64,000 nt of DNA from an uncultured virus (IMG/VR IMGVR_UViG_3300023180_000044). Its lineage: Duplodnaviria; Heunggongvirae; Uroviricota; Caudoviricetes. Positions 35,805 to 64,000 of this stretch are shown one piece after another. Each line of letters begins with the position of its first letter. The first letter of the stretch is position 1. Made by a program: the position numbers and the translations under genes. The notes under the pieces were generated by a model, which was not told where the DNA came from, made no database searches, and saw only the letters and a program-made list of their open reading frames with translations. The stretch is from IMG/VR virus record IMGVR_UViG_3300023180_000044; one strand, given 5' to 3'.

Positions 35805-37397
35805 TTAACTAATCTGATTTATACCAACAATTATATCTTCATTGATAATTTGATTTTCTTGTAACATAACACTACATGGAACACCTGATATTGATGGACT
35901 AACAATTGAAATAGTAGTCTGTGCTTGTCCAAATACCGGACACGAGGCATTTAATGGTGCTGGGACTGAAATACTGTTTTGGACATAACCATTCACAGTT
36001 GTATTACCATCAATCGTTAAATTCAATGATAATGTGTCCGTCTGTCCTGAGAATAAACCATTCGCATCACAAATAGAACCAGGACTACTATAGTAATTTG
36101 TATTTGTCGTTGTAGAATTGATTGTTCCTGAAGAACTAACACTAACCTGTGGTATACCCGCATAAGTGGCCACTTGAGATGGTCCGGATACAGTTGCAGT
36201 TTGTTGATAATAATTTCTCGAAATTAACAAATCAAAGGTTAATGACCCCCCTGAAGGCAATTGAGGACTAACATTTAATGTCCAATTAAGTGTCTGATTT
36301 TTACTATTCTGTGTTTGAGGACCGTTATTCGTTATATTATAAGTAAATGTAATCTGATAGGTCGTTGAATTATTACCAGTACCAACGGTAAAGTTTTGTG
36401 TTGATGATTGACTACCTGAATCACTAACAACTAATGTGTTATTACCACTATTCAACCCTGTAAATGTATATGACGTTGATGAAGTAGTTACAGGTGGTAA
36501 ATTATTTAATTCTAATGTAAATGGCACAATTCCACCATTCATAGTAACAGTCACCGTTCCATCTGCAGAATGTAAACATGATTCATCAGTTACCACATAT
36601 GACACATTTAATGGTTGTACTGGACAGTCTCCACTTGTTAATGTCCATGTATTACTTGTTCCAAGTTCTTCCCAAGAACCTAAAGGAATAAATACTTGAG
36701 ATGAATTAACAATTGATGTGTTACCCACACTCGGATAGTTAGATATCTCCCAACGGAAGTCGGTAATTAAATCATATGACATCACAATTGATGAATCCGT
36801 CGTTGCCGTCCATTGAGGGAATCCATTATAGTTACCGTCATAACTGAACTCCAATGTAGTATACGGTGATTGGTCCAATTGTAGACACATAGTCTGCGGT
36901 ATTGAAGGCATAGTTGGTGACGGTGTCGGTGTTGGAGTTTGAGTATGTGTTAGTGTTGGAGTATTACTATATGTTGGCGTTGGAGTTTGACTTACACCTG
37001 GCGTATTTGATACAGAAACAGTAACAGTAGGTGTTGGAGTGTGACTATATGTTGGTGTTGGCGTATTAGTTGCCATATTACTTGGTGTAATTGACGGTGT
37101 CGGTGTTGGAGAAGCAGGCATTCCACCCACCACACAGGCAGCAGTTTCAACATAATCACCATAATAATCAGTAACAGTCGCAAAATAAGTTCCAGGTGGT
37201 AAGTTATTTATTGTAAACACACCATTCATTCCGTTGGACCATTGAATAGTATATGGAGCGGTTCCACCTGTAACAAATACACTCATTGAACCATCACTTG
37301 CAGATGGCGACGATGCATTTTCAGTCACACATACAACACCCATTGGGTATATTGTGGTAATATCACAACTGTTAGTATATCCTGTCGTATTACTCAT
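35805..37397 (-). CDS. SprB-like repeat protein with Thr/Pro-rich linker (putative virion appendage)
   Basis: TGGTAPYTIQWSNG...GTYFATVTD and a TPTP tract. Confidence 0.7.
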   Translation of the reverse strand: MSNTTGYTNSCDITTIYPMGVVCVTENASSPSASDGSMSVFVTGGTAPYTIQWSNGMNGVFTINNLPPGTYFATVTDYYGDYVETAACVVGGMPASPTPTPSITPSNMATNTPTPTYSHTPTPTVTVSVSNTPGVSQTPTPTYSNTPTLTHTQTPTPTPSPTMPSIPQTMCLQLDQSPYTTLEFSYDGNYNGFPQWTATTDSSIVMSYDLITDFRWEISNYPSVGNTSIVNSSQVFIPLGSWEELGTSNTWTLTSGDCPVQPLNVSYVVTDESCLHSADGTVTVTMNGGIVPFTLELNNLPPVTTSSTSYTFTGLNSGNNTLVVSDSGSQSSTQNFTVGTGNNSTTYQITFTYNITNNGPQTQNSKNQTLNWTLNVSPQLPSGGSLTFDLLISRNYYQQTATVSGPSQVATYAGIPQVSVSSSGTINSTTTNTNYYSSPGSICDANGLFSGQTDTLSLNLTIDGNTTVNGYVQNSISVPAPLNASCPVFGQAQTTISIVSPSISGVPCSVMLQENQIINEDIIVGINQIS

Positions 37398-40300
37398 TAG
37401 TTACATGATGTGTTTAATGGTGTTACCACACCGTTTGATGATACGTTAGGATATGTCGATGAACATATCGTAACATCTGAATCTGGCATTACGGAACCAC
37501 TTTGTGCAATTCCATCACAGTCATAGTAGTTGAAGTCCACACTTGAACCATACCCAAACTGACTATAGTTAGAAATCTGATAATATAAACAAGTTATAGC
37601 GGGAGACGGTGTCGGTGTTGAAGCCGGTGTCGAAGTCGCTATTGGAGTTTGAGGTATAGTATTTCCACCACATGCGACACCTAAAGTAATGTTAACACCA
37701 AAATCCGCATGAGGTGCAGGTGATGAACATGCACATTTGTAAACCGTAGCGTTAGGTCCAATATTCTCAACTACAATACCTCCTGTTATACAATTTCTAT
37801 ACGTCCACTCCTTATATGTCGATGTAGTGTTCACCACCTGATATTCATTACAGGTACATATACTAACAATACCTCCAGATACTGATGGTGTAGGTGATGG
37901 TGACAGTGGTGGTGTTAAACATGTATTACAGTTATCATATATAGTAATTGAACTACCAAAGTAGTTGTAGTTGTAAGTAACTGGTTGGTATATAGACGGT
38001 GGTGTCCATGGCTGAGCAAATATTCCATATAATTTCCAACATACATTATTAAACATAAATGCGTTTGATGTAGTTGTTCCTGGAACAATAACAGGTTGAA
38101 TAATCATCTTATTATCACCATTACATTTCACATATGCATAAACATAAGTAATCTCACGTGAAGGACTCGGTGTAGGAGTCGAACCAACAGAGTTTGAAGG
38201 TGTTACGGTCAACGTAGGTGTCAATGTCGGAGTTTGAGTCATAGAAGGCGTCATCGTTGGTGTCACAGGAACCTCACAAGTGTTACAATCACTTTCAATA
38301 GAGTAAATCTGAGTGACATAGCTATTTGAAGAACCATCAACATCAGAATCATAGTATAAACATAATTTTCCTGAACCTTCAACACTCACAATATCAGCAA
38401 TAAATGTCATACCTGTTGTAATAGGTGTTCCATCATATTCTAAGTAATCTGAGACATAATAAGTGGTACCACCATCACAACCAACCAACTTCCTAACTGT
38501 ATTACAATCAAAGACCTCATCAAATAGTCTGAAAGTTACTGAGCCACCGATAGGTACATCAGGGGTAGGAGATGGTGTCGGTGTTGGAGTGTGGGACGCA
38601 GCTATCGATGGTGTCGGCGAATTGGATGCTGTAACCGTTGGAGTAACCGTTGGTGTTGGAGTTATTGACTCTGTTGGCGTATGTGTAGGTGTAGGTGTTA
38701 CAGATTCAGTTGGCGTTTGTGTCTGACTCACACCTGGTGTGTCCGATTGTGAAATAGTAACCGTAGGTGTGGGACTCAAAGTTGGTGTGATTGTTGGAGT
38801 TGCAGTAACAGACTGAGTAGGAGTAATAGACGGAGTCTGACTTACCGATTGTGTAACCGTTGGTGTATTTGTTGGTCCTGGCGTCTCAGTAGGTGTCAAT
38901 GTCGGAGTCACAGGTGGGGTTCCTCCTGGTGTTCTACTCGGAGTAATTGTCGGTGTAAAACTTGCACTTACCGTTGGCGTATTTGTCGGTGCCGCAGTAT
39001 CGGTTGGAGTATGTGTCGGTGTAATACTCGGTGTAGGCGTAAAACTTGCACTCACTGTTGGTGTGTGTGTCTGTGTTATACTCGGTGTAGGTGTAATACT
39101 TGCACTTACCGTTGGCGTATTTGTCGGTGCCGCAGTATCGGTTGGAGTATGTGTCGGTGTGATACTCGGTGTAGGTGTTGGTGTCTCACTCGAACCAGGC
39201 GTCGGCGTATTTGACATAGTTGGAGTCGGTGTTGGTGTATTTGTAAATGTCGGAGTATTTGTTGCCGTTGGTGAATATGTAGGTGTTGGTGTATTTGTAA
39301 ATGTCGGAGTATTTGTTGCCGTTGGTGAATATGTAGGTGTCGGACTACCCGTATTAGTCGGAGTATTTGTTGCCGTTGGTGAATATGTAGGTGTCGGACT
39401 ACCCGTATTAGTCGGAGTATTTGTAAATGTCGGAGTATTTGTTGCCGTTGGTGAATATGTAGGTGTTGGAGTATTTGTTGCCGTTGGTGAATATGTAGGT
39501 GTTGGTGTATTCGTTTTTGTTGGTGTATTTGTTGGTGTATATGAAGGTGTCGGTGTCGGAGTACCAGTATTTGACGCTGTTGGTGTAGGTGTTACCTCCT
39601 CACAAATACATGGTCCATTTGGAACAATAGAAACATTACCTCCTGTTCTATTAGCTGGAATACTACATGAACAAACCGTAACAATCTCATCAGGTGCTAA
39701 TGTTATTTGAATTATTGTATTTGCATGATTATTTCCAAAGAAACACTCCGTATATTCAATAGTTTGTTGTAAATCATCATTGTTAGTAATAGTATATGAA
39801 TTACAACTATCAGTAGGACAATCAGGGGTACATGTACCAACAGGTTCAAAAACTACTAATCCTCGACCACTAACGGTAATATCACTACCGTCACAAATAC
39901 AAACATACACCGTAGATTGAATAGGGATATTAATAGTAACAGTATTACCATAACAGTCATCAAAGGTTGCCGTTTCAACGTTGTCACTACTACTTACAAA
40001 CCTATATTCAGTACAACTGTAACAACAGGCTGAAGGTTGCGGTGCAGGAACAGAAGATGATGGAGTTACCGGTGGAGTATTTGAGGCTGTTACTGATGGT
40101 GTTGGAGTCGCAGTCGGACATGGATAAACATCAATACACTCTGAACAATTTCCTGAACCAGCACCTACAAACTTATTAACCAACGGCCCACCAGGTCCAC
40201 CTGTTGCAGTAAATTGGTAACACTGATTATTATATACAACGGTTTGTCCCGGACCTACACTATCAAAAGTTGTAAAATATGCAGTTGTCCCGTCACAACA

Positions 40301-40699
40301 GCTCGTAGTGATAAGGAATGTTGGTACAGGAGTACTCGTAGGAGATGGAATTGGTGTATATGTCTGTGTCGGTGTATTGGTTGGTGTTGGGTCTGGTATG
40401 GCATCCAAAACATCGGTACAAGGGTCTATCGGTGAAACTGCCAAATTACAGTTATTACAGTTCGTAAATGGACCTGTTAGTAGTGCATTTGTTTTAACAC
40501 TATACCCATAAGTACCTGGATTTGAACATGTCACCTGAACATTAACAACAGTAAAACATTGTTCTTTACCTGCAACTGAAATCCCATAAACCTCACCGAT
40601 AGTAGGATTAGGCCAAGATATATGTGTCGAATACATAATCGCCCTTACAGTTCCCCCACTGGTATCACAACATTCAAAAATTGCACACCCTATATTCAT
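37397..40699 (-). CDS. Cys-rich modular protein with ~350 aa mucin-like Thr/Pro/Ser tract
   Basis: Repeated Cys modules (YTEC/YRNC/YYDC...VC) flanking TPTP repeats. Confidence 0.75.
39252..39502. repeat. Coding repeat: five exact copies of a 35-bp core
   Basis: ggagtatttgttgccgttggtgaatatgtaggtgt at 39252, 39306, 39360, 39432 and 39468; encodes [12 protein letters not shown]. Confidence 0.85.
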
Positions 40700-42122: not shown

Positions 42123-43799
42123 TTAGGATTCCTTCCTCAATTTACCGTCATAATGGTCAAATCTGTCGTGCTCTGTCGGAGTTAACAATAATAACCCCGG
42201 ATTTAGGTTACCCTTAATAGTTTCTTGGAACATATATGACATCCAAGTTTGTTCATAAGGACGAGCCCATTTCTCGGTTAAGAACATCTTTTTATTACCA
42301 TACTTTGAGATGACCTGAGGCCAGTTACAATAATAAATCTCACCACTTGCATAAGGAACACCACCGAAACTTTCAATCTTATTGAACCTCGTCTTTGGAG
42401 CATTTGGGTCCAACCCTTGAACGGGAAGGTTTGGTTTCTCTGGCCAATGTTTTGACCTGAAGTCCTGAGGGACATTATACCACGCCCACTGTGTTTGGTT
42501 GTCACCATAGAATTCAGTGAAGGATAACTTTAAGAAGTCAAAATCGTTTTTCTTTGCAATTTGTAATGACTTTCTGTATAGACCTTTAACATATCTATTG
42601 AAACCATTCTTACAAACCTCACCTTCGTGTGGATAAAAGAACATATCATCCTCAAAGAAGAAGTAATAATCAAACCCTCTTTCTTCAGCATCTTCAGCAA
42701 TCCATTGACGACCACCGCATATACCTAAGTTGTCCTTCTTAACGTGGACGAAACCATATTCCTCACACAACGCTTCATATTCAGGTGTTGTCGACTCATC
42801 AGTGGAGTTATTAAGGACCACCCATTGAGGTTGAGTTACAAAGTTCTCATCATATTCCTTCATAGATTTGATGAGAGTTTTAATTTGATTTGGACTGTTA
42901 AATGTAATCACATAAAGACCAACATTTGAAATACTCAAATCACTACCCTTCTTAATCTCAAAAGGTAATTCAGTCTTTGGCTTGTGAGCGTCGTTTTTAA
43001 CATCTTCAAAAAACTTACTGATAAGACCGTTACCTTCAATATCAAAGTATTGGTATGCTTCAGGGTATCTATACAATAGGATTGAGAATAACGACTCCTC
43101 AGTACCCATATACCCCTCAGTCAATGTTGATTTCATCAAACCATAGTATTGGTTATTGAATGCACCAATTTCTTCAACAGGACCACCAAAGAATCCACCA
43201 CGACATACTTTGTTTACCTTACCACGAGCAATCTCACATAGTTTCTTATATTCAAAACCGTGAATCTCACTTTCAGTTTCATAAGGGAATGCAATAAATG
43301 AAATCTTATCAACGTTACTTAACTTATCCAACACTTTATCGTGAGTGAAGTATCCTGTGTGAACGGTGTTTGCAATACCCGCATCCAACCAGAACATATG
43401 TGTTGAATCAAACTTATCTAAAATCTTAGCGTCGTGTAATAGATAAGGTTTTGACATCACCAATGGATTATATAGGTCCAAACTCGCTTGAGTAGAGTCC
43501 TTCAACCAACCAACCTGATTGAACCACTTTTCATCTGTTCTAATCTTTTGAATTGGGTCATAAAACTCCCCCTTAAACCATTCTTGGTCACGAGTGATAA
43601 ACATCGTGTTTTCTTCCGTTCTTTTTTCAAATACAAAATCTCTTAATTCTTCATCCCCAAAAATTATCATATTATAAGGAATGTCTAAAAGAGCAGAAAA
43701 CTTATTTAAGTAATGGTCAAAACTTCTCGACCAACCTTCTTTTAGGTCACCACGTTTGATGTCCCATAAACCCGTTACGATTGTGATGTTAGATTGCAT
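42123..43799 (-). CDS. HtrL/YibB (WlaTC)-like glycosyltransferase fused to a second GT-A-like domain
   Basis: TIVTGLWDI, SKPYLL, FWLDAG, GGFFGG, GTEE; C-terminal VITFN...NLGICGGR...FFEDD. Confidence 0.7.
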   Translation of the reverse strand: MQSNITIVTGLWDIKRGDLKEGWSRSFDHYLNKFSALLDIPYNMIIFGDEELRDFVFEKRTEENTMFITRDQEWFKGEFYDPIQKIRTDEKWFNQVGWLKDSTQASLDLYNPLVMSKPYLLHDAKILDKFDSTHMFWLDAGIANTVHTGYFTHDKVLDKLSNVDKISFIAFPYETESEIHGFEYKKLCEIARGKVNKVCRGGFFGGPVEEIGAFNNQYYGLMKSTLTEGYMGTEESLFSILLYRYPEAYQYFDIEGNGLISKFFEDVKNDAHKPKTELPFEIKKGSDLSISNVGLYVITFNSPNQIKTLIKSMKEYDENFVTQPQWVVLNNSTDESTTPEYEALCEEYGFVHVKKDNLGICGGRQWIAEDAEERGFDYYFFFEDDMFFYPHEGEVCKNGFNRYVKGLYRKSLQIAKKNDFDFLKLSFTEFYGDNQTQWAWYNVPQDFRSKHWPEKPNLPVQGLDPNAPKTRFNKIESFGGVPYASGEIYYCNWPQVISKYGNKKMFLTEKWARPYEQTWMSYMFQETIKGNLNPGLLLLTPTEHDRFDHYDGKLRKES

Positions 43800-43813: not shown

Positions 43814-44704
43814 TTAATTATTTTTTATCTCTTCGAAGAATTCATAAAAGCTGGTCTTATCAGCCAAAAATACTTCAGTTATTGACCTATCAGTCAGGTG
43901 TGTATCGTCGTGATACCACGTATTAAATTTAAACGACCTGTAGTTTTCTGGTTTGTCGTAAACCATAGTCGACATCATCGCTTCATGATTTAATAAAAAC
44001 TCTTTCTTCAAACATACTTGAGCATACTCTTCAAATCTTTCATAAAAATCAGGTAATTTACTTACATGACCACCAATGATACCACCAACACTTAATGAGT
44101 TATAGGGGTGTTGTTTTTCCAATATATCATTGAGAACTCTATGATTATGAAAGAATAAGGTGTTTCTTAAATCAATAAGTTTATCACCAACCCAATTATT
44201 AATGTTCTTAAACATATCTTCATTGAAGATACCATCGAAAGTATATCGAGAAACATTATTAGAAAGACCAGTAATCTCTGATGCTCTACTGTTATATCTA
44301 CGTGGGAAAAGACCCATATGTGATAGGCCAACATCAATCCAATAAAGGTAGTCCAAATCGTCTTCCATTTCTTCTTCCATCAGAGCAATTTTTGCCCAAC
44401 CAACTTCCAAATAAAACTTAAACTTCTCAGGATTCTTTTCCTTAATCTTAATCATCGCCTGACTATGACGAATATCTCCCAACTCTTTAACTTTTAGTTC
44501 AACATTTGTTACGTTATTTTCCTCTAATAACTCTTTTAAAGCAGGATAGATGTTACTACCACAATAACAAACGATAGGTAACCCCATCTTTGATAGTTGA
44601 ACCAACGAATTCTTATATCGGTCCCATCTCGCCACGACCTTATGACCGTAGAATGGAAACTCAGCAATTCCAAAATATAAAAATGTTACTAACTTAGTTT
44701 TCAT
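43814..44704 (-). CDS. HtrL/YibB (WlaTC)-like glycosyltransferase
   Basis: KLVT, AKIAL, YWIDVG, GGIIGG, HE; parallels the N-terminal domain of 42123-43799. Confidence 0.6.
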   Translation of the reverse strand: MKTKLVTFLYFGIAEFPFYGHKVVARWDRYKNSLVQLSKMGLPIVCYCGSNIYPALKELLEENNVTNVELKVKELGDIRHSQAMIKIKEKNPEKFKFYLEVGWAKIALMEEEMEDDLDYLYWIDVGLSHMGLFPRRYNSRASEITGLSNNVSRYTFDGIFNEDMFKNINNWVGDKLIDLRNTLFFHNHRVLNDILEKQHPYNSLSVGGIIGGHVSKLPDFYERFEEYAQVCLKKEFLLNHEAMMSTMVYDKPENYRSFKFNTWYHDDTHLTDRSITEVFLADKTSFYEFFEEIKNN

Positions 44705-46272
44705 TTTCTAAAGTAATAATCTCCTAATACCAAACAATCCATTTTGGTGTTATCGTATACTTTTAATGCATCTGTATATCTACTTAATATCGGTTTTCCG
44801 TTAATATTGAATGATGTATTCAATAGGACACCAATTCCTGAATATTTTTCAAACTCACCCAACAAATCATACAACCATGGGTTTTGTTCTCTCGTTACTG
44901 TTTGAACTCTCGCAGTTCCATCAATGTGAGTGATTGAAACCAATTTTTCTCTCCATTCTTCTTTTACCGTTGGACAGAAACTCATCCATCTACTCTCACC
45001 CTCAAAATCAAAATACTTCTCAACATCTTCCAAACGACAAACAGGTGCGAAAGGACGGTACCACTCACGGTTTTTAACCTTCGCATTCAAAATGTCCTTC
45101 ATATCAGGGTATGCTGGATTACATAAGATACTTCTATTACCCAATGCTCTCGGTCCGTGTTCTGAAGTGCCACGAACAACACCCACAATCAACCCATTCG
45201 CCAAATCCATTGACAATCGGTCAGTTTGTAATTCAAACCCACGTCTTTCCTCAACGTGAGACATCAATGTGTGTTTGTCCAATACAGGAACACCCGCATA
45301 TGTCACGTCAATAGCCGTTTCAGGTTTCATATGATTCAAAATCATACCTGTCGCAATACCACAATCGTTAGGATTTGGTGGAACGAACACTGGTCGGTCC
45401 AAAATCTGTTGTAATTTTGTATTCAATAGGATATTCAACGCACATCCACCAACAGTAATCAATGGAAGACCAGGATATTGGTCCAAGAATGGTTGAGCCA
45501 TCTCCATAAAGACGTTTTCAAACGCAATTTGTGATGTTTTTGCCACATCCCAAGCCGTTTGACCTGTCATTCTATTGTTGATGTCAAACACCAATCCTGT
45601 TTGCTCTCCCAATTCACCCAAAAACCCAATATAGTTCAAACCGTCAGGTTTTCTTCTATAATATGCCTCGAAATGAGGTAACCACTCTTCATTGACATTA
45701 CCATAAGAGCATAATCCCATGATTTTACCTGAATAGACGAGGTTTCCGATGTTTAAAGCCGGTTCCTTACGGATATCACCCAAATAGTCACCAAACGACA
45801 TATAAGGGAACCCTAAGTCCAAATTGTATTTATCCAATAATTCAATATCATTGCGGTCTTTAGCCAAATACACATTGAAGAACCCATCATTACCACCACC
45901 ATCAAAAGAAATGATTAAAGCATCTCTATAATCCGATTGGTATAGACCACAAGCCGCATGACTGAGGTGATGCAATTGATTTTTATATTCTTTGGCAGGA
46001 ATAAGTTTTTCATAATGAACCTTTGTTCCACCTTCCAAAGTATCTGAATTGAGGTAATAACACGTATCATATTCACTGATACCATATTCGTCCTCAATGA
46101 ACTTCAAAATGTGTTTTAAAAGATATGGTCTCGTATATGAAACCAAATACTGGGAATACCCAGCATTCTTTTCAGATAAAAATCTCTCTACCTCAATAAC
46201 GGTAATTAGTTTTCCGTTCTCCTCAACGGCAACCGCAGCGTTGTGAGAACCATAAAATGCAATATTTGCCAT
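44701..46272 (-). CDS. O-carbamoyltransferase (NodU/CmcH/TobZ family)
   Basis: HNAA, HHLSHA, DGGG, GKIMGL, GGCALN, NDCG, GPRALGNRS, KNREWYRPFAP, HIDGTARVQTV, LNTSFN. Confidence 0.95.
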   Translation of the reverse strand: MANIAFYGSHNAAVAVEENGKLITVIEVERFLSEKNAGYSQYLVSYTRPYLLKHILKFIEDEYGISEYDTCYYLNSDTLEGGTKVHYEKLIPAKEYKNQLHHLSHAACGLYQSDYRDALIISFDGGGNDGFFNVYLAKDRNDIELLDKYNLDLGFPYMSFGDYLGDIRKEPALNIGNLVYSGKIMGLCSYGNVNEEWLPHFEAYYRRKPDGLNYIGFLGELGEQTGLVFDINNRMTGQTAWDVAKTSQIAFENVFMEMAQPFLDQYPGLPLITVGGCALNILLNTKLQQILDRPVFVPPNPNDCGIATGMILNHMKPETAIDVTYAGVPVLDKHTLMSHVEERRGFELQTDRLSMDLANGLIVGVVRGTSEHGPRALGNRSILCNPAYPDMKDILNAKVKNREWYRPFAPVCRLEDVEKYFDFEGESRWMSFCPTVKEEWREKLVSITHIDGTARVQTVTREQNPWLYDLLGEFEKYSGIGVLLNTSFNINGKPILSRYTDALKVYDNTKMDCLVLGDYYFRK

Positions 46273-46273
46273 A

Positions 46274-55709: not shown

Positions 55710-58700
55710 TTACGCAACTGTATTTCCTTTGAAGTAAATCGTTTCACTCGAGTTGTCAAAGAAGAACCCTGAACCCGTAACATTTGTTGTATATACTCTA
55801 TACGAACCTGGCAAGAAGTGTCCACCTGGATTGACTACTGGTCCAAGTGCGAATAGACCTGGGTCCATAACCTCTTGTGCGAACGTATTAGGTCCTTGTC
55901 CAAATGAGAAATCTACAATTGTTTGTCTATTTCCTGAACTTGTTCCACCAATAGAATCATCAGGAATTAATAATGTGTAATATCCATCTCCAGGTGCCGT
56001 ACCAGGACTAACCTCCATAGTTTCAAAATTCCATCTTATAATGGAGTTACCGAATGAGTCAACACCTCCGCTTGATTGTGGTATTGGTGAAGATATAATT
56101 GCAGGAACATTTCCTACACCAGCATTTAAGTTATAGAAGCTCAAGTAATCAATAATATCTTGAGTTTGTGTAATTACAGAAGCATTTGAGTATCCGTAGA
56201 AGTTAAAGTTACCTCTAGTGTTAAACATGTAGTTACCAATTTCAGCACCTATTGAACTCGGTTCAATAATCAAATATGCCGGAGGTAAGGACGCTTGCGA
56301 CGGACTAACTGATGGAGTCACTGTCGGTGTCGGTGTCAACGATGTTGACGGTGTCACCGATGGAGTTGGCGTATGTGTCGGAGTAGCCGATATTGACGGT
56401 GTCACCGATGGTGTTGGTGATGGTGTTGGTGTTGACGTTCCACCAGGTGTAGTTGGTGTCGGTGTCACCTCAGCCGTTTGTGTAGGTGTTTGTGTTGGAG
56501 TTGGAGTTACAGGTGTCGGACAATCTGCAATATCTCTAATTAAACCACTATTATCAATTTGGAATTTAACAACACCTATAAAACCTGCGTTGTCTTCAGC
56601 ATCATACCATAGGTCTGCACCTTGGAATGGTGTTGTCAATCCTGGGTCAACAAATACAAAGTCCCCGATTTGAGCCGCCGTCACAGTGTTGAAATCATTG
56701 CTATAAACTGCATCGTTTACAGGTTGACATTCTAAGTTCGAATCAGGTGCACCACCGCTAGGACCCGCGTTAAAGAAGAACTCAATAGTCTCAGCAGGTG
56801 TTGGTGATGGAGTATTTGTCGGTGTCGGCTCTGGAGTTGAAGACGGAGTCTTAGTTGGGCCAGGAGTTTGAGTAACTGTAGAAGTTGGTGTAACCGCCGG
56901 TGTTGCCGTTGGAGTTGGAGTTACAGGTGTCGGACAATCCGCAATATCTCTAATTCTACCTGTATTCTCAATTTGGAACTTAACTGTTCCAATGAAACCT
57001 GCAGTATTTTCAGCATCATACCATAAGTTAGCTCCCGCGAATGGAGTTGTTAATCCTGGGTCAAGGAATACGAAGTCACCGATTTGTGCGTTTCCTACAG
57101 GTCCGAAGTCATTAGTATAAACTAAGGCATCTACAGGTTGACATTCCTGACTTGAATCAGGGAAACCTGCACCTTGAGTAGCATTTAAGTAGAACTCAAT
57201 AGTCGCAGCTGGACTTGGTGTCGGAGTGCTCGTTTGTGTTGGTTCTGGCGTTGAAGACGGAGTCTTAGTTGGACCAGGAGTCTGAGTAACTGTCGAAGTT
57301 GGTGTAACCGCCGGTGTTGCCGTTGGAGTTGGAGTAACAGGTGTTGGACATTCTGCGATGTCTCTAATTCTACCTGTATCTTCAATTTGGAACTTAACTG
57401 TTCCAACAAATCCTGCAGTGTTCTCAGCGTCATACCATAAGTTAGCCCCTGCAAATGGAGTTGTCAATCCTGGGTCAACAAATACGAAGTCTCCAATTTG
57501 TGCATTACCCACAGGACCAAAGTCATTAGTGTAAACTAAAGCATCTACAGGTTGACAATCTAAGTTCGAATCAGGTGAACCTGCACCTGCCGCTTCATTT
57601 AAGTAGAACTCAGTAGTCTCAGCCGGTGTTGATGACGGAGTATTTGTCGGTGTTGGCTCTGGAGTTGAAGACGGAGTCTTAGTTGGACCAGGAGTCTGAG
57701 TAACTGTCGAAGTTGGTGTCACATCAGGAGTTGAAGTTACCGTAGGAGTAACCGTAACCTGAGGAGTTCCTGATGGAGTTGAAGTCAACGTTGGAGTTGG
57801 TGACAACTCAACAGTTGTAGATGGTGTAGGTGAATTAGTAACTGTCTGTGTTAATGTTGGAGTTTGTGTTGGAGTTTCAAACGGTGTTGCGGTAAAGTCA
57901 GGCGTCGGAGCCGGAGTTGTCGACGGAGTAACTGTCTGTGTTAATGTTGGAGTTTGTGTTGGGGTTGATGTTGCAGTTGCAGTTGGAGTTACCTCAGCCG
58001 TTTGTGTTGGTGTACTAGTACTTGTCGGTGTTACCGCAGGAGTCTCAGACGGAGTCGCTGAAGGTGTCACTGTTGGAGTTGATGTAGATGCCGGCGTTGA
58101 TGTCGGAGTATTTGAAGCTGTCGGAGTTACCGTAGCTTGAGGAGTACTAGTTGGCGTCGCAGTTGGACTTACAGTCGCAGTAATAGTAGGAGTAAGAGTT
58201 GGACTAACACTTATTGATGGTGTTACCGATGGTGTTGGACTATGTGTTGGTGTTGGTGTTTGACTAACATCTGCAGTGTTAGACGGAGTAGGTGTTACTG
58301 TAGATTGTGGTGTGCTAGATGGTGACTGAGTTACTGTTGGTGTAACTGTTGCCGTCGGAGTAGACGTAGAAACAGGTGTTTGTGTAGGTGTCGGGGTATT
58401 TGAAGCAGTTACTGTTGGTGTGTTAGTTGAAGTTGCAACAGGAGTTCCTGTCGGTGTTGAACTAACCGTCACAGTTGGCGTTGCAGTTGCTTGTGGCGTA
58501 TTTGTTGGAGTGTTAGATGGCGTTACTGTTACAGTTGCTTGTGGAGTAGATGTCGGTGTAGAAGTAGCGGTTGGACTCACACTTACTGATGGAGTAACTG
58601 AAGGAGTCGCACTATGAGTTGGCGTTGGTGTTTGACTTACACCCGCAGTATTAGATGGTGTAGGTGTCGGAGTATTAGTGGCAGTGTTGGATGGTGTAAC

Positions 58701-59774
58701 CGCAGGTGTCGAACTTGGAGTTGCAGTCGGAGTAGTCGTTACACCAGTAATTGTCTGTGTCGGAGTTTGTGTCAATGTTGGTGTCGGAGTTTGTGTTACA
58801 CCAGTAATTGTCTGTGTTGGTGTAACAGTAATTCCTGTAAATGTACTAGAAGGCGTTATTGTCGGAGTCGTAGTTAAAGTTGGTGTTGCAGTGGCAAATG
58901 GTGTAGCGGTAATATCAGGAGTGACTGCAGGTGTTGAACTTGGAGTTGCAGTTGGAGTTGTAGTTACACCTGTAATTGTCTGTGTTGGTGTAACAGTAAT
59001 TCCTGTAAATGTACTAGAAGGCGTTATCGTCGGTGTTGAAGTAATTCCTGTAAATGTACTAGAAGGCGTTATCGTCGGTGTTGAAGTAATTCCTGTAAAT
59101 GTAGATGATGGTGTTGGAGTAGGCGTAATACCAGCAAAAGTAGATGTCGGAGTCATCGTTGGCGTAATCGTTGGTGTTGCAGACGGTGCAAATGTTGGTG
59201 TTGGTGTAGGAGTTGGGAATACATAGTTGAAATTAGCACTGAAAACATACTCAGAAGCACCTGTAGTTGTAAAGGTAACGCCCGAGAATGTTGAACTGTA
59301 ATCTAATAAGTTGAAGTCAGCACCCGAATCAGAAACAACAGTAGAACCTGTAGTTCCACCTTCAGGAATAAAAATACTTGCATTCAATACAACAGGGTCA
59401 CCTGAAGTAACACCTAAGACGTTAACAAAATCAAATTCTACTCTCTTATCGACGGCATATCTTGCACGTGCAAAGTAAGTGGCAACAACCGAACCTGGTT
59501 CATAGGTCGCAGTCAAATCGATAATATCTGAATTACCTGTAAGTGTGAATCTCTTAGTGATAGTTTGGTCCTCACAACCTGGTTGAAGATTTTCAAAAAT
59601 CAACGTATAGCTTGTACCATTTGGCTCTGCAGGGAAATCATAGGGAATACCCGCAACTAATTGGTCCCTTGTCTTATTGGACAGAATCGGGGAAGTGGCT
59701 GTGGAGCCTGTATATATGTTAAATGGACCAACCGCATTAGTATCAAGGGTTAATCGTAATATTACTTGAGCCAT
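55710..59774 (-). CDS. Mucin-like Thr/Pro-rich protein with three tandem ~85 aa domains
   Basis: >500 aa continuous T/P/S/A/V tract; three copies of CQPV...[23 protein letters not shown]...IRDIA.CP. Confidence 0.8.
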
Positions 59775-59953: not shown

Positions 59954-62900
59954 TTATGGAAGGTTTGGCACGAACATAAATACCGTTTCAGCATCACCAG
60001 GTGTTTCATTACAAATAGGGATGTTATACCCCAAATTGTTAAGTGCTGTTATAATTAGGTTTGTGTAGTATTGTGCGGTATCACCATTCACAACATCATA
60101 TGTATTATGTATTTGTGTCTTACCCGAAAGACCATATTCACCAACATATTGACCCTCTCCATTCTCAACGGATTGTAATAATGTTTTAAAAGCTAGACCC
60201 AGAGGATTATCAGGATTATCATTGGGTCTATTCACTTGGAAATATTCCCCACGTATATAATTTGAATTATTATTTTCTATAACCGACCTAAGAGTTGTAA
60301 TATCCTCATTAAAAGACTCAGTCCTTTCTGTTTCATTAGTCCATGTCTTGGCGCTGAAAATATATGGCGGAGATGCTTCATCTTGGAATACCAAATTAAT
60401 AACCTTAGTAATAGCAGGCGAGCTACCCTCAGTTGCTAACAGTTTATACCCTCTTTCATAACTGTTCGATATATCTGAAAAGTTTCTAACCCTAACCCTT
60501 TGGTCATATAATCTTGAATCATTACCATAGAAAGGTAATAAACAAGGTTTAAGTATTGTAGACGCCATAATATTTAATGGTGTCTCTGTGCTTGTCATAG
60601 AACCTGAATTGTCAAAGAATATATTAATTTCAGTTTCCTCATCAACCTCCATCGGAGGTAAACCACAATCAATCACATAATCAATCTTTAAATCAATGGT
60701 TAACCTTTCATTTGATGAACATTCACCTGTAATCGATATTGTATTCTCGAACACATCAACCTCAACGTGTCCAATACCTGTAATTCCACTTAATACTCCC
60801 TCAATGGTTTCACCCCACAAACTATCTGACGGGTAATCATTTAACGTATATCCTGTATAGAATGGACCTTCATAGGTATTTCCACTAAATTCAATCACAT
60901 AATTGAATATAGCACTTACTAACACACAATTTGTTGAACCACTTGAAATATCTAAGAATCCTTCGTTTAACATACTGTGAATCGACCTCTTAGTGTATGT
61001 TGTAGTAAATTGGTCCTCACAAACCTGAACCAATTGGTAGTCACCAATATTTTGGTTGGTACACAATACCGTTGATGATGTCGTTCCTGAACATCCGTTC
61101 GCATCGGTCACAGTAACTGAATATGTACCAGCTCCTAATCCGGTAATTGATTGTGTCGTATTACCGTTTGACCATAAGTAGGTAAATGGTGCAACACCAC
61201 TAACAGGCTGAGCCGTTAGTGTGGCAGCACTTTGTGGGGTACACTCTTCTTTTGCAATTGATACAGTTACACCTGGCGTTCCTGAGATTACAAAGTTCTC
61301 TTCGATACTACAGTTGTCACCATCAACAACTCTTATCGTATATGTTCCCTGTGGTAAATTGTTAAATGTGTAAGAACTAAATCCAACATCCAATAAAACC
61401 TGTCCGTTACTCAAAATATAATCTAACGGTGAAGTGTAACCTGCACCAACAGTAATTGTTGCCGAACCATTAAGATTACCACAAGACTCATCAACCGTTG
61501 TTGCTGAAACAGTAAACTTAGGAGTTACTGATACAACAATATCCTCTGAGTAAACACATCCACGTGCACTTTCAATAGTTAAGGTGTAGGTATCGTCAGT
61601 TAAGTTAGGGAATTGCTGATTTAAATTGCTACTTGTAATTGTTGATTGGTAACCATTGGTCTGACCTGACAATTTATAGGTAAATGGATTACCATCACCT
61701 TGTAGATAAACTGTTAATGTTGCCTCACTACCACAATTTATATACGCTAAGTTCCAATTTACAGATTCAATACCTCCTAACGATGGTATTGCACTTTGTA
61801 TTAACAATTGACAACCGTAGTCATCAGTAACTAAAACGTCATAACCTCCAGTTGATAAACCTGTAAAGGTAAACGTTGTATTTGATGAGGTTCCTGATTG
61901 ACCATCCGAACCTTGGTATAGGTAAGGTGCGGTTCCACCTGAGATATTAACCTCAATCTCTCCATCTGCACTTAAACAATTAGCCGCAACCACATTAACC
62001 GACAACTCACCTAAGGCATTGTCTGAATTAATAGCAATTGACTTCGTTAATTGACAATCATTGGCGTCGGTTACTGTAACTGAGTAACTTCCAACACTTA
62101 ATCCTGTGATGGTATCACCTGTTGCCCCGTTTGACCATAGGTAAGTGTAAGGTGGTTGACCTGTAAGTCCTGTAATACCAGCTTCACCCGTGTTAAATCC
62201 ACATTGTGACGTTGATTGACCTGATAAACCAAAGTCTAAGGTAGATGTTCCACTGATAGTCACCGTTTGAGTCTGTGCGGTTGCGCCACCGAAGTCAGTA
62301 ACAATCGCATAATAGTCACCATTTGGTAAATTATTAAATGAATATGGGTTATTCACCAAATTAACGGTAGTATAACTAACAGAATCTTTAAATAACTCAA
62401 TATTTTGAGGAATTGATAACGAATCACCACTCACACTCAAATATCCATTATCCTGAGAACATGTGGTACCTGAATAGTCGTCAATGATTGCATCCAAACA
62501 TCCATCAACCCAAACTGAGATTAACGCCGTCTGATTTGGAGAAGCACTATCAGTCAACGTGAACACATAATTACCTTCTGTAAGACCTGTAAACTCAAAC
62601 GGGTAATATGATGTTGAGTTAGGTAATGTACCGGGAACACTATTCACTATTGAGAATGGTGGGACACCTTGAGTTGGTGTAATAATTATCTCACCACCAC
62701 TTGGATTATCACACGTTCCTGAAACTATTAAGTCATATTGAATTGGACCATAGTTACAGTCTTGTGTTGTTGGCGTAAAGTTTACAGTAATACCACTGTA
62801 ATTGAAACTTGTATCAATAGTTACCGCATCACCAATAGAATTACCAGATTGATAGAAACCACAACAGTCAATATAGAAATAACTACCGTTGGTGCTGCCT

Positions 62901-64000
62901 TCATAACAATCATTTGCAGGTGGAGTTGCACTCGGTGTTTGTGTCGGTGTTGGTGTTTGAGTATGACTAGGTGTCGGGGTCGGACTCGGCGTTATAAAAT
63001 CTTGCGGACACACCACATCAATGGCATCCAAGAAATTACCTCCCGCCTCTGATGAAGTTGCTGAAAACACTAGACTATAATCTGTCTCAGTCGCGGTGAA
63101 ATTAACTGCATTTAGAGTCCATGAACCTGTTAAACCTGTATATTCATTAGGGAAGAAATTCAAACCACTTGTTGCACCACTAAGACCTACTCTTAACGTA
63201 TTATCAAAACCTGTCCTACCTCTATGGGCAAACTGAACTTGATAATCGGTCCCGTTAACCGCTGTAAATGTTTGATATAATGATTGAGGGTCAGATGACT
63301 GAGCATTAATCTCTGCGAAATGTGTTCCTTCATATGCCGGAACCCCAAGAAATCCTGAAGCCCATATTTCAATAACATTTGACGAATCTGTCGTATTCCA
63401 ACCAGGTATACAATCTTCAGGGTAGAAGTGGGAGTTTGTAGTTCCAATACAATCAGCACCAACACAACCCGGAGGACACGGTCCCAAATCTGACATAAAG
63501 ATATCAAATGAAGGGTTAATTAACCTACTACATGGTGTGGTAGGTGTTGGCGTTTGTGCCGGTGTTCCCGCAGGTGTTGAACTTGGTGTATATGTTGGTG
63601 TTTGAGTAGGAGTTTCAGTGTATGTCGGACTCGGAGTATATGTCGGCGTTGGCGTTTGCGTTCCTCCACCTGTTGAACTCGGAGTATGTGTCGGTGTTTG
63701 TGTTGGCGTCTCCGTAGGAGTTTCAGTATATGTTGGACTCGGAGTATATGTCGGTGTTGGCGTTTGTGTCCACGTTTGTGAAGGGGTATGTGTCGGTGTT
63801 GGTCTAGGTGTATCAGTATTTGAAGGTGTCGGCGTTGGTGTAGTTTCTTCACAAACACATGAACCATTTCGAGTCACAGTAACGAGAGCACTACCTATAA
63901 CACGAGGAGTAGAACACGAACAAACTCTGATTGTCTGAGCAGCAGATAATGTTATTTGAATTGTAGTATTGGTGTGATTATTACCTGAAAAACACTCACT
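59954..64000 (-). CDS. Large adhesin-like protein: Cys module, T/P tracts, jelly-roll-like domain, SprB-like repeats, C-terminal vWA-like domain (N-terminus outside the window)
   Basis: The frame stays open from the track start 63877 to 64000 ([18 protein letters not shown]...). YTYLWSNG...[11 protein letters not shown] repeats; FDNSGSM MIDAS-like motif. Confidence 0.8.

What the first reader, a model, noticed from the sequence alone, without database searches (positions are those of the whole stretch)
35805..64000. Phage 'mucin' system: GT60/carbamoyltransferase/HtrL operon embedded among Thr/Pro mucin-like virion genes
Seen: a tightly coupled four-gene unit (47542->42123: GT60, carbamoyltransferase, HtrL-like GT, HtrL+GT fusion) interrupts the tail/fibre region. 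Four genes around it (35805, 37397, 55710, 59954) carry T/P/S tracts of ~70 to >500 aa. Known: GT60 enzymes add alpha-GlcNAc directly to protein (Dictyostelium/Toxoplasma Gnt1 on Skp1 hydroxyproline; trypanosome OGNT on mucin Thr), and NodU/TobZ enzymes O-carbamoylate amino sugars. Inference: the phage makes its own O-linked, extended and carbamoylated glycan on the TP tracts. This would give stiff, protease-resistant stalks or a glycan shield that displays adhesin domains. A complete mucin-type pathway with adjacent substrates would be very unusual in a bacteriophage.
Basis: partly seen in the sequence, partly recalled or inferred. Interest (0 to 1): 0.92.

Follow-up and report, generated by a model that had tools for sequence, protein, structure and literature searches.

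The report
Phage sugar-coating genes beside Thr/Pro proteins
An uncultured large phage carries a four-gene set of soluble sugar-adding enzymes, led by a relative of the enzymes that start mucin-type sugar chains, among fibre-like proteins with long threonine/proline stretches, so it most likely sugar-coats its own proteins, though no sugar has been measured.

Summary
A tightly packed minus-strand operon (47542→42123) encodes a GT60/PF11397 glycosyltransferase, a NodU/TobZ-type carbamoyltransferase, an HtrL-like protein and an HtrL+GT-A fusion. Only four ORFs in the 64-kb window carry Thr/Pro/Ser tracts (76, 474, 695 and 142 residues), and all four flank the operon.

The interpretation, that the phage O-glycosylates its own TP tracts, gains strong comparative support but no biochemical proof.
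- The GT60 model's best structural matches are the mucin-type polypeptide GalNAc-transferases.
- All four enzymes are soluble.
- 74 of 80 related viral loci have TP-tract ORFs within 10 kb of GT60.
- All 4 GT60-positive cultured jumbo phages carry TP-coding tracts; none of 5 GT60-negative relatives does.
- In bacterial genomes, TP-tract ORFs are about 35-fold denser within 1 kb of GT60 than 5–10 kb away.
- XacN1, which has the same cassette, has Schiff-positive virion proteins in print.

- The carbamoyltransferase is an accessory (6 of 80 relatives). It sits in a hypervariable glycan-tailoring island between GT60 and the HtrL fusion.
- A hydroxyproline route is not supported. The window's 2OG oxygenase is of the collagen lysyl-hydroxylase type.

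This scan has flagged the same system before on other DNA.

The parts
46274..47542 (-). GT60-family (PF11397) soluble GT-A glycosyltransferase with an invariant D97-x-H99 motif and an extra beta-rich C-terminal domain (~300-422). Proposed initiating polypeptide HexNAc-transferase.
   Evidence: Pfam E 5.6e-69. phrog_24687 E 6.4e-167. Alignment invariants. AF2 model pLDDT 81. The top 29 PDB entries by VIA-align are all ppGalNAc-transferases, Z 17.4-19.5. No TM segment.
44701..46272 (-). NodU/CmcH/TobZ-type carbamoyltransferase. An accessory glycan-tailoring enzyme.
   Evidence: Carbam_trans_C E 2.4e-62 and Carbam_trans_N E 1.1e-18. phrog_1601 E 1e-115. The NodU equivalog cut-off is not reached (160.5 vs 1000 bits). 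Present in 6 of 80 related loci. 46-47% identical to the XacN1-group orthologues.
43814..44704 (-). HtrL-like single-domain protein (H1), a probable GT-A-like glycosyltransferase.
   Evidence: No Pfam, PHROG or NCBIfam hit. BLASTP to H2, E 2e-5. hhalign against the H2 alignment: probability 97.5%, E 8.2e-12, aligned to H2 residues 6-255. Found in 44 of 80 related loci.
42123..43799 (-). HtrL_YibB domain plus a second GT-A domain (H2), a dual glycosyltransferase. It is the conserved far end of the glycan island.
   Evidence: PF09612 E 2e-18 at residues 4-251; TAGT only 18.5 bits, below its 27.5 cut-off. AF2 pLDDT 82.5. Foldseek's best matches are dual-GT-A enzymes: LH3, K4CP, mimivirus R699, COLGALT1, LARGE1, PmHS2. 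Linked to GT60 in 75 of 80 loci.
47764..47792 (-). Terminator-like hairpin between the upstream fibre-like gene and GT60.
   Evidence: 12-bp stem, 5-nt loop, T-run. This is a consensus match only.
55710..59774 (-). 1354-aa modular protein with 695 residues of TP tract. A ~138-aa globular module occurs three times (414-bp DNA repeat). Proposed acceptor.
   Evidence: Translation, tract scan, tandem repeat 56494-57719 with period 414 x 3.0, phrog_15511.
59954..64000 (-). Protein of at least 1348 aa, open at the window end, with 142 residues of TP tract. Also has a DUF642 domain, four SprB repeats and a vWA-like C-terminal part. Proposed acceptor.
   Evidence: The vWA-like MIDAS motif is my reading of the sequence and was not tested.
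37397..40699 (-). 1100-aa protein with 474 residues of TP tract linking Cys-rich modules (7% Cys outside the tracts). Proposed acceptor.
   Evidence: Tandem repeats at 38949-39538.
35805..37397 (-). 530-aa protein with SprB repeats and 76 residues of TP tract. Proposed acceptor.
47817..55652 (-). Three fibre-like repeat proteins (976, 918 and 663 aa) without TP tracts. They are context and not claimed as acceptors.
   Evidence: The C-terminus of the 976-aa protein is 51% identical to Flavobacterium phage 'putative tail fiber-like protein'.

Best explanation
This is a phage-encoded, cytoplasmic, mucin-like protein O-glycosylation system. After the large modular adhesin- or fibre-type proteins are translated in the infected cell, the soluble GT60 enzyme (46274-47542) transfers a first HexNAc to Thr/Ser hydroxyls in their Thr/Pro-rich linkers. 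By family analogy this sugar is alpha-GlcNAc from UDP-GlcNAc. The HtrL-like protein and the HtrL+GT-A dual transferase extend the chain, and in this phage the carbamoyltransferase O-carbamoylates a sugar.

GT60 and the HtrL fusion bracket a hypervariable island. In related phages this island swaps in fucosyl-, galactosyl-, methyl-, sulfo- and acetyl-transferases, so the glycan differs between close relatives. The likely pay-off is stiff, protease-resistant, antigenically variable stalks that display the globular binding modules.

Shown here: the family and fold assignments, solubility, operon structure, and genomic coupling of GT60 with TP-tract genes in phages and bacteria.

Inferred: the acceptor (TP tracts, Thr/Ser), the donor sugar, the order of steps, virion location of the acceptors, and the benefit.
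For: 1. Enzyme identity.
- PF11397 at 233.7 bits.
- Invariant DxH motif in 16 aligned homologues of 29-89% identity.
- By VIA-align the best 29 PDB entries are all polypeptide GalNAc-transferases (Z 17.4-19.5, 264-283 residues aligned). Generic GT-A enzymes follow at Z <= 16.5.

2. Solubility.
- No TM segment in any of the four cassette proteins, and in only 1 of 80 island cluster representatives.
- Among the 35 of 80 island clusters that have Pfam hits there is no flippase, polymerase or lipid-carrier family.

3. Coupling in relatives.
- 74 of 80 viral loci with a 72-89% identical GT60 have TP-tract ORFs within 10 kb, commonly as the gene immediately upstream.
- Most of the 6 misses have little or no upstream flank.

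4. Reverse test.
- 80 loci (72 contigs) were chosen only for (TP)5-coding DNA.
- 7 loci from 6 contigs have a GT60 homologue within 10 kb, at 27-71% identity.
- 2 of 6 further whole contigs that could be searched have GT60 elsewhere.

5. Presence/absence in cultured jumbo phages.
- XacN1, Xoo-sp13, RAS14 and CM1 (PF11397 in 4 of 4) give 109, 72, 59 and 59 TP-pattern matches. The reversed-pattern control gives 1, 1, 4 and 4.
- Five relatives found through the DNA polymerase lack PF11397 (0 of 5) and give 0 matches in 1.97 Mb.

6. Bacterial genomes.
- In 65 loci with 38-58% identical GT60, ORFs with >= 60 TP-tract residues occur at 7.13, 4.17, 2.71 and 0.20 per 100 kb in the 0-1, 1-3, 3-5 and 5-10 kb zones.
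- 16 of 65 loci have such an ORF within 3 kb, by record titles from at least 7 phyla.

7. Fusions.
- Of 20 long GT60 representatives that I picked for their length, 5 are fused to HtrL and 4 to P4H-type 2OG oxygenase domains. The second type of fusion ties the family to protein modification.

8. Experiment in print.
- XacN1 has the colinear cassette (GT60 46%, CT 46%, H1 27%, H2 42% identity).
- Its virions show at least two Schiff-stained bands, and the authors name ORF334 (the GT60) as a candidate enzyme (PMC5852040: passages, legend of Fig. S4).

9. XacN1 genomic DNA was cut with BssHII, NaeI and SpeI.
Against: - No glycan, acceptor or donor has been measured for any member of this system.
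- The XacN1 paper does not say which proteins stain. Its figures are not held, and ORF328 (GT9-like) is an equally named candidate.
- The 80 viral loci are close relatives, and the four cultured GT60-positive phages form one clade (DNA polymerase 68-79% identical). Many of the counts are therefore not independent events.
- Only 16 of 65 bacterial GT60 loci have a TP-tract ORF within 3 kb.
- One 93%-complete TP-bearing viral contig lacks GT60. The pairing is therefore frequent but not obligatory in either direction.
- In bacteria, HtrL is known only from LPS/LOS core loci (search listing).
- Whether the TP proteins are in the virion was not shown here.
- The margin between the ppGalNAc-transferases and generic GT-A folds is small (Z 17.4 vs 16.5).
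- The window is a fragment, so a DNA-hydroxymethylase or a P4H elsewhere in this genome cannot be excluded.
Confidence: 0.62

Rival explanations
1. The cassette remodels a host envelope glycan (LPS/LOS core, O-antigen or capsule intermediates built in the cytoplasm) during infection, for example to block superinfection. On this reading the adjacency to TP-tract genes reflects gene order in a structural or host-interaction module and not an enzyme-substrate relation.
For: - HtrL/YibB is known from LPS/LOS core loci (search listing only).
- Iyer et al. 2021 (PMC7824862, passage seen) read polymorphic GT clusters of jumbo cyanophages as producing diversified outer polysaccharides that pre-empt attachment of other phages.
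- The island between GT60 and H2 is hypervariable like an O-antigen locus.
- GT25, GT10 and GT11 families also act on bacterial LPS (recalled).
Against: - All characterised GT60 enzymes act on polypeptides (recalled from CAZy and the literature).
- No membrane protein, flippase, polymerase or lipid-carrier transferase family was found in the cassette or among the 80 island clusters.
- This reading does not explain why TP tracts are present in 4 of 4 GT60-positive and 0 of 5 GT60-negative jumbo phages.
- It also does not explain the distance decay of TP-tract ORFs around GT60 in bacterial genomes.
- The cassette is shared by phages of Xanthomonadales and by this low-GC phage, whose hosts would have different envelopes.
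Confidence: 0.14
2. The cassette glycosylates phage proteins other than the TP tracts, for example capsid, sheath or tube subunits as in mycobacteriophages. The TP tracts would then be plain flexible linkers.
For: - The published precedent concerns C-termini of capsid and tail-tube subunits (passage citing Freeman et al. 2023, seen).
- The XacN1 paper does not identify the stained bands.
- TP linkers occur without GT60 in at least one nearly complete viral contig.
Against: - The specific and repeated adjacency of GT60 to TP-tract ORFs across identities from 27% to 89% and in bacteria.
- The structural kinship with enzymes that act on Thr/Pro-rich mucin repeats.
Confidence: 0.12
3. The enzymes hypermodify phage DNA by adding sugar and carbamoyl groups to hydroxymethylated bases.
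For: - Weak hits of the second H2 domain to TET-associated glycosyltransferase (E 0.002, 18.5 bits) and to phrog_842, a beta-glucosyl-HMC alpha-glucosyltransferase (E 2.8e-5).
- In XacN1 the cassette lies next to the DNA polymerase and RNase H genes.
- The window holds a dCMP deaminase and two DNA methyltransferases.
Against: - The TAGT hit is below its Pfam cut-off and covers only 64 residues of a generic GT-A core.
- Among the window ORFs scanned there is no base hydroxymethylase, TET/JBP or kinase family.
- XacN1 DNA was digested with BssHII, NaeI and SpeI for mapping.
- Fucosyl-, sulfo- and methyl-transferase variety is not what is known of DNA sugars (recalled).
Confidence: 0.04
4. The cassette makes a soluble carbamoylated glycoside or other secondary metabolite.
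For: Carbamoyltransferases of this family act on antibiotics and Nod factors (recalled). Iyer et al. 2021 propose such a cluster in cyanophage S-SSM6a (passage).
Against: - There are no scaffold-forming enzymes in the cassette.
- The carbamoyltransferase is absent from 74 of 80 related loci, whereas GT60 and H2 persist.
- The coupling to TP tracts would be unexplained.
Confidence: 0.03

Closest known systems
CAZy GT60 polypeptide alpha-GlcNAc-transferases of protists (Trypanosoma cruzi mucin OGNT on Thr; Dictyostelium/Toxoplasma Gnt1 on Skp1 hydroxyproline). Names and activities are recalled, not taken from a call.
   Same: Same Pfam family (PF11397), a GT-A fold with a DxH motif, and soluble like cytoplasmic Gnt1. 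As in T. cruzi, the presumed acceptor is a Thr/Pro-rich mucin-like sequence.
   Different: - The host is a prokaryotic virus.
- There is an extra conserved C-terminal beta-rich domain (~300-422) that the Pfam model does not cover.
- No P4H partner was found.
- No solved GT60 structure was found by sequence.
- Activity is untested.
Animal GT27 polypeptide GalNAc-transferases (initiation of mucin-type O-glycosylation)
   Same: Nearest solved folds (Z 17.4-19.5), the DxH metal motif, a catalytic domain followed by a second C-terminal domain, and Thr/Pro-rich tandem-repeat acceptors.
   Different: - Only 11-14% identity, and a different CAZy family.
- Whether the C-terminal domain resembles the ricin-type lectin domain was not resolved. 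The rows mostly span model residues 3-333.
- The phage enzyme is cytoplasmic, not Golgi.
Xanthomonas jumbo phage XacN1 ORF334-ORF330 (and Xoo-sp13, RAS14, CM1)
   Same: A colinear orthologous cassette of GT60, carbamoyltransferase, HtrL-like and HtrL+GT (45-47%, 46-47%, 24-27% and 40-42% identity). There are many TP tracts in large ORFs of the structural modules, and Schiff-positive virion proteins.
   Different: In XacN1 and Xoo-sp13 the carbamoyltransferase is longer (765 aa) and there is one extra ORF. The cassette sits between replication genes and a 3313-aa ORF. The authors mention glycosylation in two sentences, and the passages seen do not mention GT60, TP tracts or the cassette.
Mycobacteriophage virion glycosylation (Che8, Corndog, Myrna; Freeman et al. 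2023). Seen only as a citation and a one-sentence summary and in search listings.
   Same: Phage-encoded glycosyltransferases that O-glycosylate the phage's own structural proteins in the cytoplasm.
   Different: The acceptors there are short C-terminal extensions of capsid and tail-tube subunits. Here they would be linkers of hundreds of residues in fibre- or adhesin-type proteins. The enzyme families were not compared here.
Giant-virus protein glycosylation (mimivirus L230/R699 collagen-type; chlorovirus capsid glycans)
   Same: Virus-encoded soluble glycosylation machinery. The same window also holds LH3/L230-like and COLGALT1/LH3-GT-like genes.
   Different: That chemistry is Hyl-Gal-Glc on collagen-like repeats. 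The TP tracts contain only 0.3% Lys, and no GXY repeats occur in the window.

Membership tests
GT60 / PF11397 (46274-47542) | Scores above the curated family threshold | tested here: met
   233.7 bits against a 21-bit gathering cut-off, E 5.6e-69.
GT60 / PF11397 (46274-47542) | GT-A fold with a DxH metal-binding motif shared with GT27 | tested here: met
   D97 and H99 are invariant and S98 is >= 90% conserved in 16 homologues. AF2 model pLDDT 81. GT27 enzymes are the best structural matches. That DxH defines these families is recalled.
GT60 / PF11397 (46274-47542) | Transfers alpha-GlcNAc from UDP-GlcNAc to a polypeptide Thr or Hyp | not testable with these tools
   Needs an enzyme assay. Only genomic coupling to TP-tract ORFs was shown.
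Skp1-type pathway (P4H1 then Gnt1) | A prolyl 4-hydroxylase partner that creates the Hyp acceptor | tested here: not met
   - PF13640 is found in 0 of 4 complete GT60-positive phage genomes, and the tool's control rang in 2 named genomes.
- No 2OG oxygenase appears among the 80 island clusters.
- The window's oxygenase at 29716-30357 matches lysyl hydroxylases LH3 and L230 (E 1e-24).
- The window is a fragment, so a P4H elsewhere in this genome is not excluded.
- Some distant multi-GT60 proteins are fused to PF13640 domains (4 of 20 scanned).
NodU/CmcH/TobZ carbamoyltransferases (44701-46272) | Both the N- and C-terminal carbamoyltransferase domains are present | tested here: met
   PF02543 at 68.2 bits (cut-off 24) and PF16861 at 209.9 bits (cut-off 27).
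NodU/CmcH/TobZ carbamoyltransferases (44701-46272) | Orthology to NodU proper | tested here: not met
   NF041651 scores 160.5 bits against a 1000-bit equivalog cut-off. It is a family member, not NodU.
HtrL_YibB (42123-43799, N-terminal half) | Scores above the Pfam threshold | tested here: met
   PF09612 at 67.4 bits against 24.1. The TIGR02192 equivalog cut-off is not reached (87.1 vs 264.9), so it is not an orthologue of E. coli YibB.
HtrL_YibB (43814-44704) | Homology to the HtrL domain | tested here: met
   No direct Pfam hit, but hhalign to the H2 alignment gives probability 97.5%, E 8.2e-12 over H2 residues 6-255.
TET-associated / HMC DNA glycosyltransferases | Scores above the family threshold and is accompanied by a base hydroxymethylase or TET | tested here: not met
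   TAGT scores 18.5 bits against a 27.5 cut-off, over 64 residues only. No such partner family is among the window ORFs scanned. The rest of the genome was not seen.
Lipid-linked polysaccharide (O-antigen/capsule) loci | An initiating polyprenyl-phosphate transferase, flippase or polymerase, i.e. membrane proteins | tested here: not met
   No predicted TM segment in the cassette, and in only 1 of 80 island cluster representatives. No such Pfam family among the 35 of 80 clusters with hits. 45 clusters have no hit at all.
Mycobacteriophage-type virion glycosylation | Phage-encoded GT plus glycan shown on virion proteins | not testable with these tools
   The only experimental datum is Schiff staining of unidentified XacN1 virion bands.

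The most novel reading that the evidence does not exclude
GT60 plus Thr/Pro-tract proteins form a widespread prokaryotic mucin-type O-glycosylation module, used by bacteria of many phyla and by an abundant group of aquatic and soil jumbo phages. In the phages it builds a 'glycocalyx' on fibre or adhesin stalks. The glycan (fucosylated, sulfated, methylated, acetylated or carbamoylated) is diversified by a hypervariable tailoring island bracketed by the initiator and an HtrL dual transferase. This would be a protein-borne counterpart of O-antigen variation, evolving in an arms race with hosts, proteases or grazers, and a possible evolutionary source or sister of the protist mucin GlcNAc-transferases.
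Probability: 0.42. Interest if true: 0.85.

Novelty: new variant of a known kind. Interest (0 to 1): 0.78.

Why it matters
If the reading is right, three things follow.
1. Mucin-type initiation on Thr/Pro repeats, thought of as a eukaryotic speciality, has a soluble prokaryotic and viral counterpart that can be assayed in E. coli.
2. Very abundant uncultured jumbo phages carry a variable sugar coat on their host-recognition apparatus. That bears on host range, on virion stability, and on how phage proteomics misses heavily glycosylated proteins.
3. HtrL/YibB, a long-unassigned family, gets a testable role as a glycan-extending transferase.

The cassette also offers a compact toolbox for making defined O-glycans on TP linkers. 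Cultured systems exist for direct tests: XacN1, Xoo-sp13, RAS14 and CM1 among phages, and the isolate Jiulongibacter sediminis JN14-9 among bacteria, which has a TP-tract ORF beside its GT60.

Tried and rejected
- Hydroxyproline route: rejected as the leading mechanism. A search of the four GT60-positive phages with the window's LH-like protein found nothing, but that call had no positive control.
- DNA hypermodification: considered because of weak TAGT and phrog_842 hits, and rejected as unlikely.
- Sequence search of the GT60 against PDB chains: no hit at E <= 1.
- Protein atlas for the GT60 C-terminal domain (residues 300-422): no usable hit. For the 733-aa neighbour it returned only unnamed viral clusters.
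- tblastn of the 733-aa neighbour against phages: no match.
- Exact (TP)4-coding pattern in the window: 0 matches, because the tracts are imperfect, e.g. [12 protein letters not shown].
- Whole genome of the window: not held.
- Collagen-like GXY repeats (5 or more) as a substrate for the LH/GT25 genes: none in the window.
- Promoter scan of 41800-48000: 14 sites against 22.2 expected, so uninformative.
- TP tracts inside GT60 proteins themselves: 1 of the 150 best representatives, so fusion of enzyme and acceptor is not the rule.
- A first count of TP tracts near bacterial GT60 genes (52 of 78 loci) was discarded. It was inflated by 20-30-residue tracts in spurious frames of GC-rich DNA. It was replaced by a 60-residue threshold with distance bins. 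In that analysis, 13 loci with more than 58% identity were set apart as probable phage contigs in MAG bins.
- No complex prediction of GT60 with a TP tract was run. An enzyme with a disordered substrate is a poor case for that tool.
- Literature searches for 'GT60' + 'phage', 'PF11397', mucin-like/jumbo/glycosyltransferase and glycosylated/tail fiber/threonine/proline-rich returned no title or abstract describing this system. Most hits were seen only as listings.

Full report
WHAT IS THERE

The window is a fragment of a large tailed phage. All long ORFs are on the minus strand. They include a sigma-70-type factor, DnaJ, SbcCD, primase, a RuvC-like resolvase, dCMP deaminase and two DNA methyltransferases. 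Close relatives of its genes lie on IMG/VR viral contigs of up to about 300 kb. No whole genome is held for the window.

- 46274-47542 is a strong PF11397/GT60 member (E 5.6e-69).
- 44701-46272 has both carbamoyltransferase domains.
- 42123-43799 has an HtrL_YibB domain (E 2e-18) followed by a second domain.
- 43814-44704 has no library hit, but it aligns profile-to-profile with the HtrL domain of its neighbour (probability 97.5%, E 8.2e-12).

The genes are separated by a 1-bp gap, a 4-bp overlap and a 14-bp gap. A strong terminator-like hairpin at 47792-47764 separates the unit from the fibre-like gene upstream.

An amino-acid scan finds Thr/Pro/Ser tracts in exactly four ORFs of the 64-kb window. 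The composition is T 36%, P 23%, S 12% and K 0.3%. The tracts link globular modules: SprB repeats, DUF642, a thrice-repeated ~138-aa module and Cys-rich modules.

THE ENZYMES

An alignment of 16 GT60 homologues (29-89% identity to the window protein) keeps D97 and H99 invariant, giving the motif 'DSH'.

The AlphaFold model (pLDDT 81) is a GT-A fold. Its best PDB matches are the mucin-type polypeptide GalNAc-transferases. All of the top 29 entries by VIA-align belong to this group (Z 17.4-19.5, 264-283 residues aligned, rmsd 3.5-4.2). Generic GT-A enzymes such as B4GALNT1 and SpsA follow at Z <= 16.5. The margin is small but consistent.

A conserved beta-rich C-terminal domain (~300-422) is not covered by the Pfam model. 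Its fold was not resolved.

The H2 model (pLDDT 82.5) is two tandem GT-A domains. Its best matches are other dual-GT-A enzymes: LH3, chondroitin polymerase K4CP, mimivirus R699, COLGALT1, LARGE1 and heparosan synthase 2.

None of the four proteins has a predicted membrane segment.

DOES GT60 GO WITH TP TRACTS?

1. Close viral relatives.
- 381 IMG/VR stretches encode a relative, and I analysed the best 80 (72-89% identity).
- GT60 is linked to H2 in 75 of 80, to H1 in 44 of 80, and to the carbamoyltransferase in only 6 of 80.
- 74 of 80 loci have TP-tract ORFs within 10 kb, usually as the gene ending just before GT60.
- Most of the six misses have little or no upstream flank.
- These loci are related, so this shows conserved linkage and not independent events.

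2. Reverse direction.
- 80 viral loci (72 contigs) were chosen only for encoding (TP)5.
- 7 loci from 6 contigs have a GT60 homologue within 10 kb, at 27, 38, 41, 57, 66 and 71% identity. These are diverse lineages.
- Of 10 further large TP contigs, 6 could be searched whole. Two have GT60 elsewhere on the contig and four do not, including one that is 93% complete.

3. Cultured phages.
- Only 4 of 50,697 phage records have a GT60: XacN1, Xoo-sp13, CM1 and RAS14 (confirmed with the HMM).
- They give 109, 72, 59 and 59 matches to a TP-coding pattern. The reversed-pattern control gives 1, 1, 4 and 4.
- Five jumbo phages found through the DNA polymerase (RsoM2USA, SCTP-2, XbC2, Phosso and RaK2; 1.97 Mb) lack PF11397 and have no match at all.
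- The four positives form one clade.
- In XacN1 the tracts lie in large ORFs next to the baseplate-wedge and tail-sheath genes.

4. Bacteria.
- 372 stretches in species-representative genomes encode relatives.
- In the 65 loci at 38-58% identity, ORFs with at least 60 TP-tract residues occur at 7.13, 4.17, 2.71 and 0.20 per 100 kb in the 0-1, 1-3, 3-5 and 5-10 kb zones around GT60.
- 16 of 65 loci have such an ORF within 3 kb. By their record titles they come from Gemmatimonadota, Acidobacteriota, Verrucomicrobiota, Bacteroidota, Planctomycetota, Actinobacteriota and Proteobacteria.
- The far zones of the same loci serve as a composition-matched control.

5. Fusions.
- I picked 20 long representatives out of the 150 best for their length.
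- 5 fuse GT60 to HtrL, and 4 fuse several GT60 domains to P4H-type 2OG oxygenases.
- The first kind of fusion ties HtrL to the GT60 pathway. The second ties the family to protein modification.

THE VARIABLE ISLAND

In 74 loci the distance from GT60 to H2 ranges from 49 bp to 9.3 kb. The space holds 80 protein clusters, of which 35 have Pfam hits:
- glycosyltransferases of families GT25, GT10, GT11, GT7 and GT2, plus PLOD-GT and HtrL;
- FkbM- and CmcI-type methyltransferases;
- two kinds of sulfotransferase;
- the carbamoyltransferase;
- GNAT and hexapeptide acetyltransferases;
- DegT aminotransferases and a nucleotidyltransferase.

No flippase, polymerase, lipid-carrier enzyme or 2OG oxygenase appears. 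Only 1 of 80 representatives has a hydrophobic segment. The carbamoyltransferase of this window is therefore one interchangeable decoration, not a core part.

WHICH ACCEPTOR RESIDUE?

The window has two 2OG-oxygenase-like genes. The one at 29716-30357 is a homologue of collagen lysyl hydroxylase (LH3, E 1.3e-24; mimivirus L230, E 1.9e-23). ORF 1-2379 combines COLGALT1-like and LH3-GT-like domains with a methyltransferase. This looks like a separate, collagen-type Hyl-Gal-Glc toolkit. Its substrate is not in the window: there are no GXY repeats, and the TP tracts have almost no Lys.

None of the four complete GT60-positive phage genomes has a P4H-type domain. Direct transfer to Thr/Ser is therefore more likely than a hydroxyproline route, although some distant GT60 proteins are fused to P4H-type domains.

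WHAT IS IN PRINT

- The XacN1 paper (PMC5852040; I saw passages and the legend of Fig. S4, not the figures) reports at least two Schiff-stained virion proteins. It suggests that ORF328 or ORF334 makes them, and ORF334 is the GT60 homologue. It also maps the genome with BssHII, NaeI and SpeI, which argues against bulky DNA sugars.
- Iyer et al. 2021 (PMC7824862, passages) read polymorphic GT clusters of jumbo cyanophages as host outer-polysaccharide systems. That is the main rival.
- A 2025 paper on aquatic 'moraphages' (PMC12619734, one passage) lists unassigned glycosyltransferases. It cites the mycobacteriophage precedent for glycans on capsid and tail-tube C-termini.
- Four searches returned no title or abstract describing GT60 in phages or its pairing with TP tracts.
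- Supplements of bioRxiv items were not consulted.

VERDICT

The most likely reading (0.62) is a phage-encoded, cytoplasmic, mucin-like O-glycosylation system. GT60 primes Thr/Ser in the TP linkers of large modular fibre- or adhesin-type proteins. HtrL-type transferases extend the chain, and a hypervariable island tailors it.

Shown: enzyme families and folds, solubility, operon structure, and the repeated genomic pairing.

Inferred: donor, acceptor residue, order of steps, virion location and benefit.

Rivals:
- host envelope remodelling (0.14);
- glycosylation of other phage proteins (0.12);
- DNA modification (0.04);
- a small molecule (0.03).

This is a new variant of a known kind. Virus-encoded protein glycosylation is known in mycobacteriophages and giant viruses, and GT60 is known in protists, but this enzyme family, this type of acceptor and the variable island are not described for phages in what I could search.

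The same system has been flagged by this scan in at least eight other genomes. Those are unchecked notes and not independent evidence. My analysis up to one search was made before I saw them.

Noticed in passing
window 1-2379 (-), 29716-30357 (-), 30508-31101 (-): A second, collagen-type protein-modification toolkit.
- ORF 1-2379, open at the window end, combines a COLGALT1-like GT25 domain (PDB 9u7h, E 5e-37), an LH3-type GT domain (6wfv, E 2e-37) and a methyltransferase domain.
- 29716-30357 is a lysyl-hydroxylase homologue (LH3, E 1.3e-24; mimivirus L230, E 1.9e-23).
- 30508-31101 is a weaker paralogue (OGFOD2-like).
- No collagen-like GXY repeat is present in the window, so the substrate is unknown.
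   Followed up: partly
loci L012-L091 (IMG/VR), between the GT60 and H2 homologues: The glycan-tailoring island is hypervariable: 49 bp to 9.3 kb, with 80 protein clusters in 74 loci. 45 of the clusters have no Pfam hit. Sulfotransferases and GT10/GT11 fucosyltransferase-family genes are among the hits.
   Followed up: partly
loci L230-L238 (genome contigs): The closest GT60 relatives in 'bacterial' assemblies (61-73% identity) lie on contigs binned as Saprospiraceae, Bacteroidia or Lewinellaceae MAGs, including a 230-kb contig. Most are probably phage contigs binned with their host. Together with the SprB repeats in two TP proteins and the Flavobacterium-phage-like fibre tip, this hints at a Bacteroidota host.
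   Followed up: no
window 40804-42030 (-): A 408-aa protein directly downstream of the cassette matches phrog_20754 'protease' (E 2e-24) and carries a GDSGS motif of the trypsin-like serine-protease type (the motif is my reading). Homologues lie about 5 kb upstream of GT60 in two related loci (L066, L078). Its relation to the glycosylation system is unknown.
   Followed up: no
window 37397-40699 (-): Outside its TP tracts the 1100-aa protein is 7% cysteine (44 Cys in 626 residues), in repeated short modules. That is unusual for a protein made in a bacterial cytoplasm.
   Followed up: no
window 56494-57719: A 414-bp unit is repeated 3.0 times at 82% identity inside the 1354-aa TP protein. Each unit encodes one globular module plus a TP linker, which suggests recent expansion by duplication.
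   Followed up: no
proteins P0004, P0005, P0006, P0019 (representative library): Giant proteins of unknown origin (1641-2461 aa) contain three or four GT60 domains fused to P4H-type 2OG oxygenase domains, and in two cases also to an AhpC/TSA domain.
   Followed up: no
window 17702-18517 (-), 7399-8328 (-): The phage encodes a full sigma-70-type factor (regions 1.2, 2 and 4) and a complete DnaJ (J domain, zinc-finger domain and C-terminal domain).
   Followed up: no
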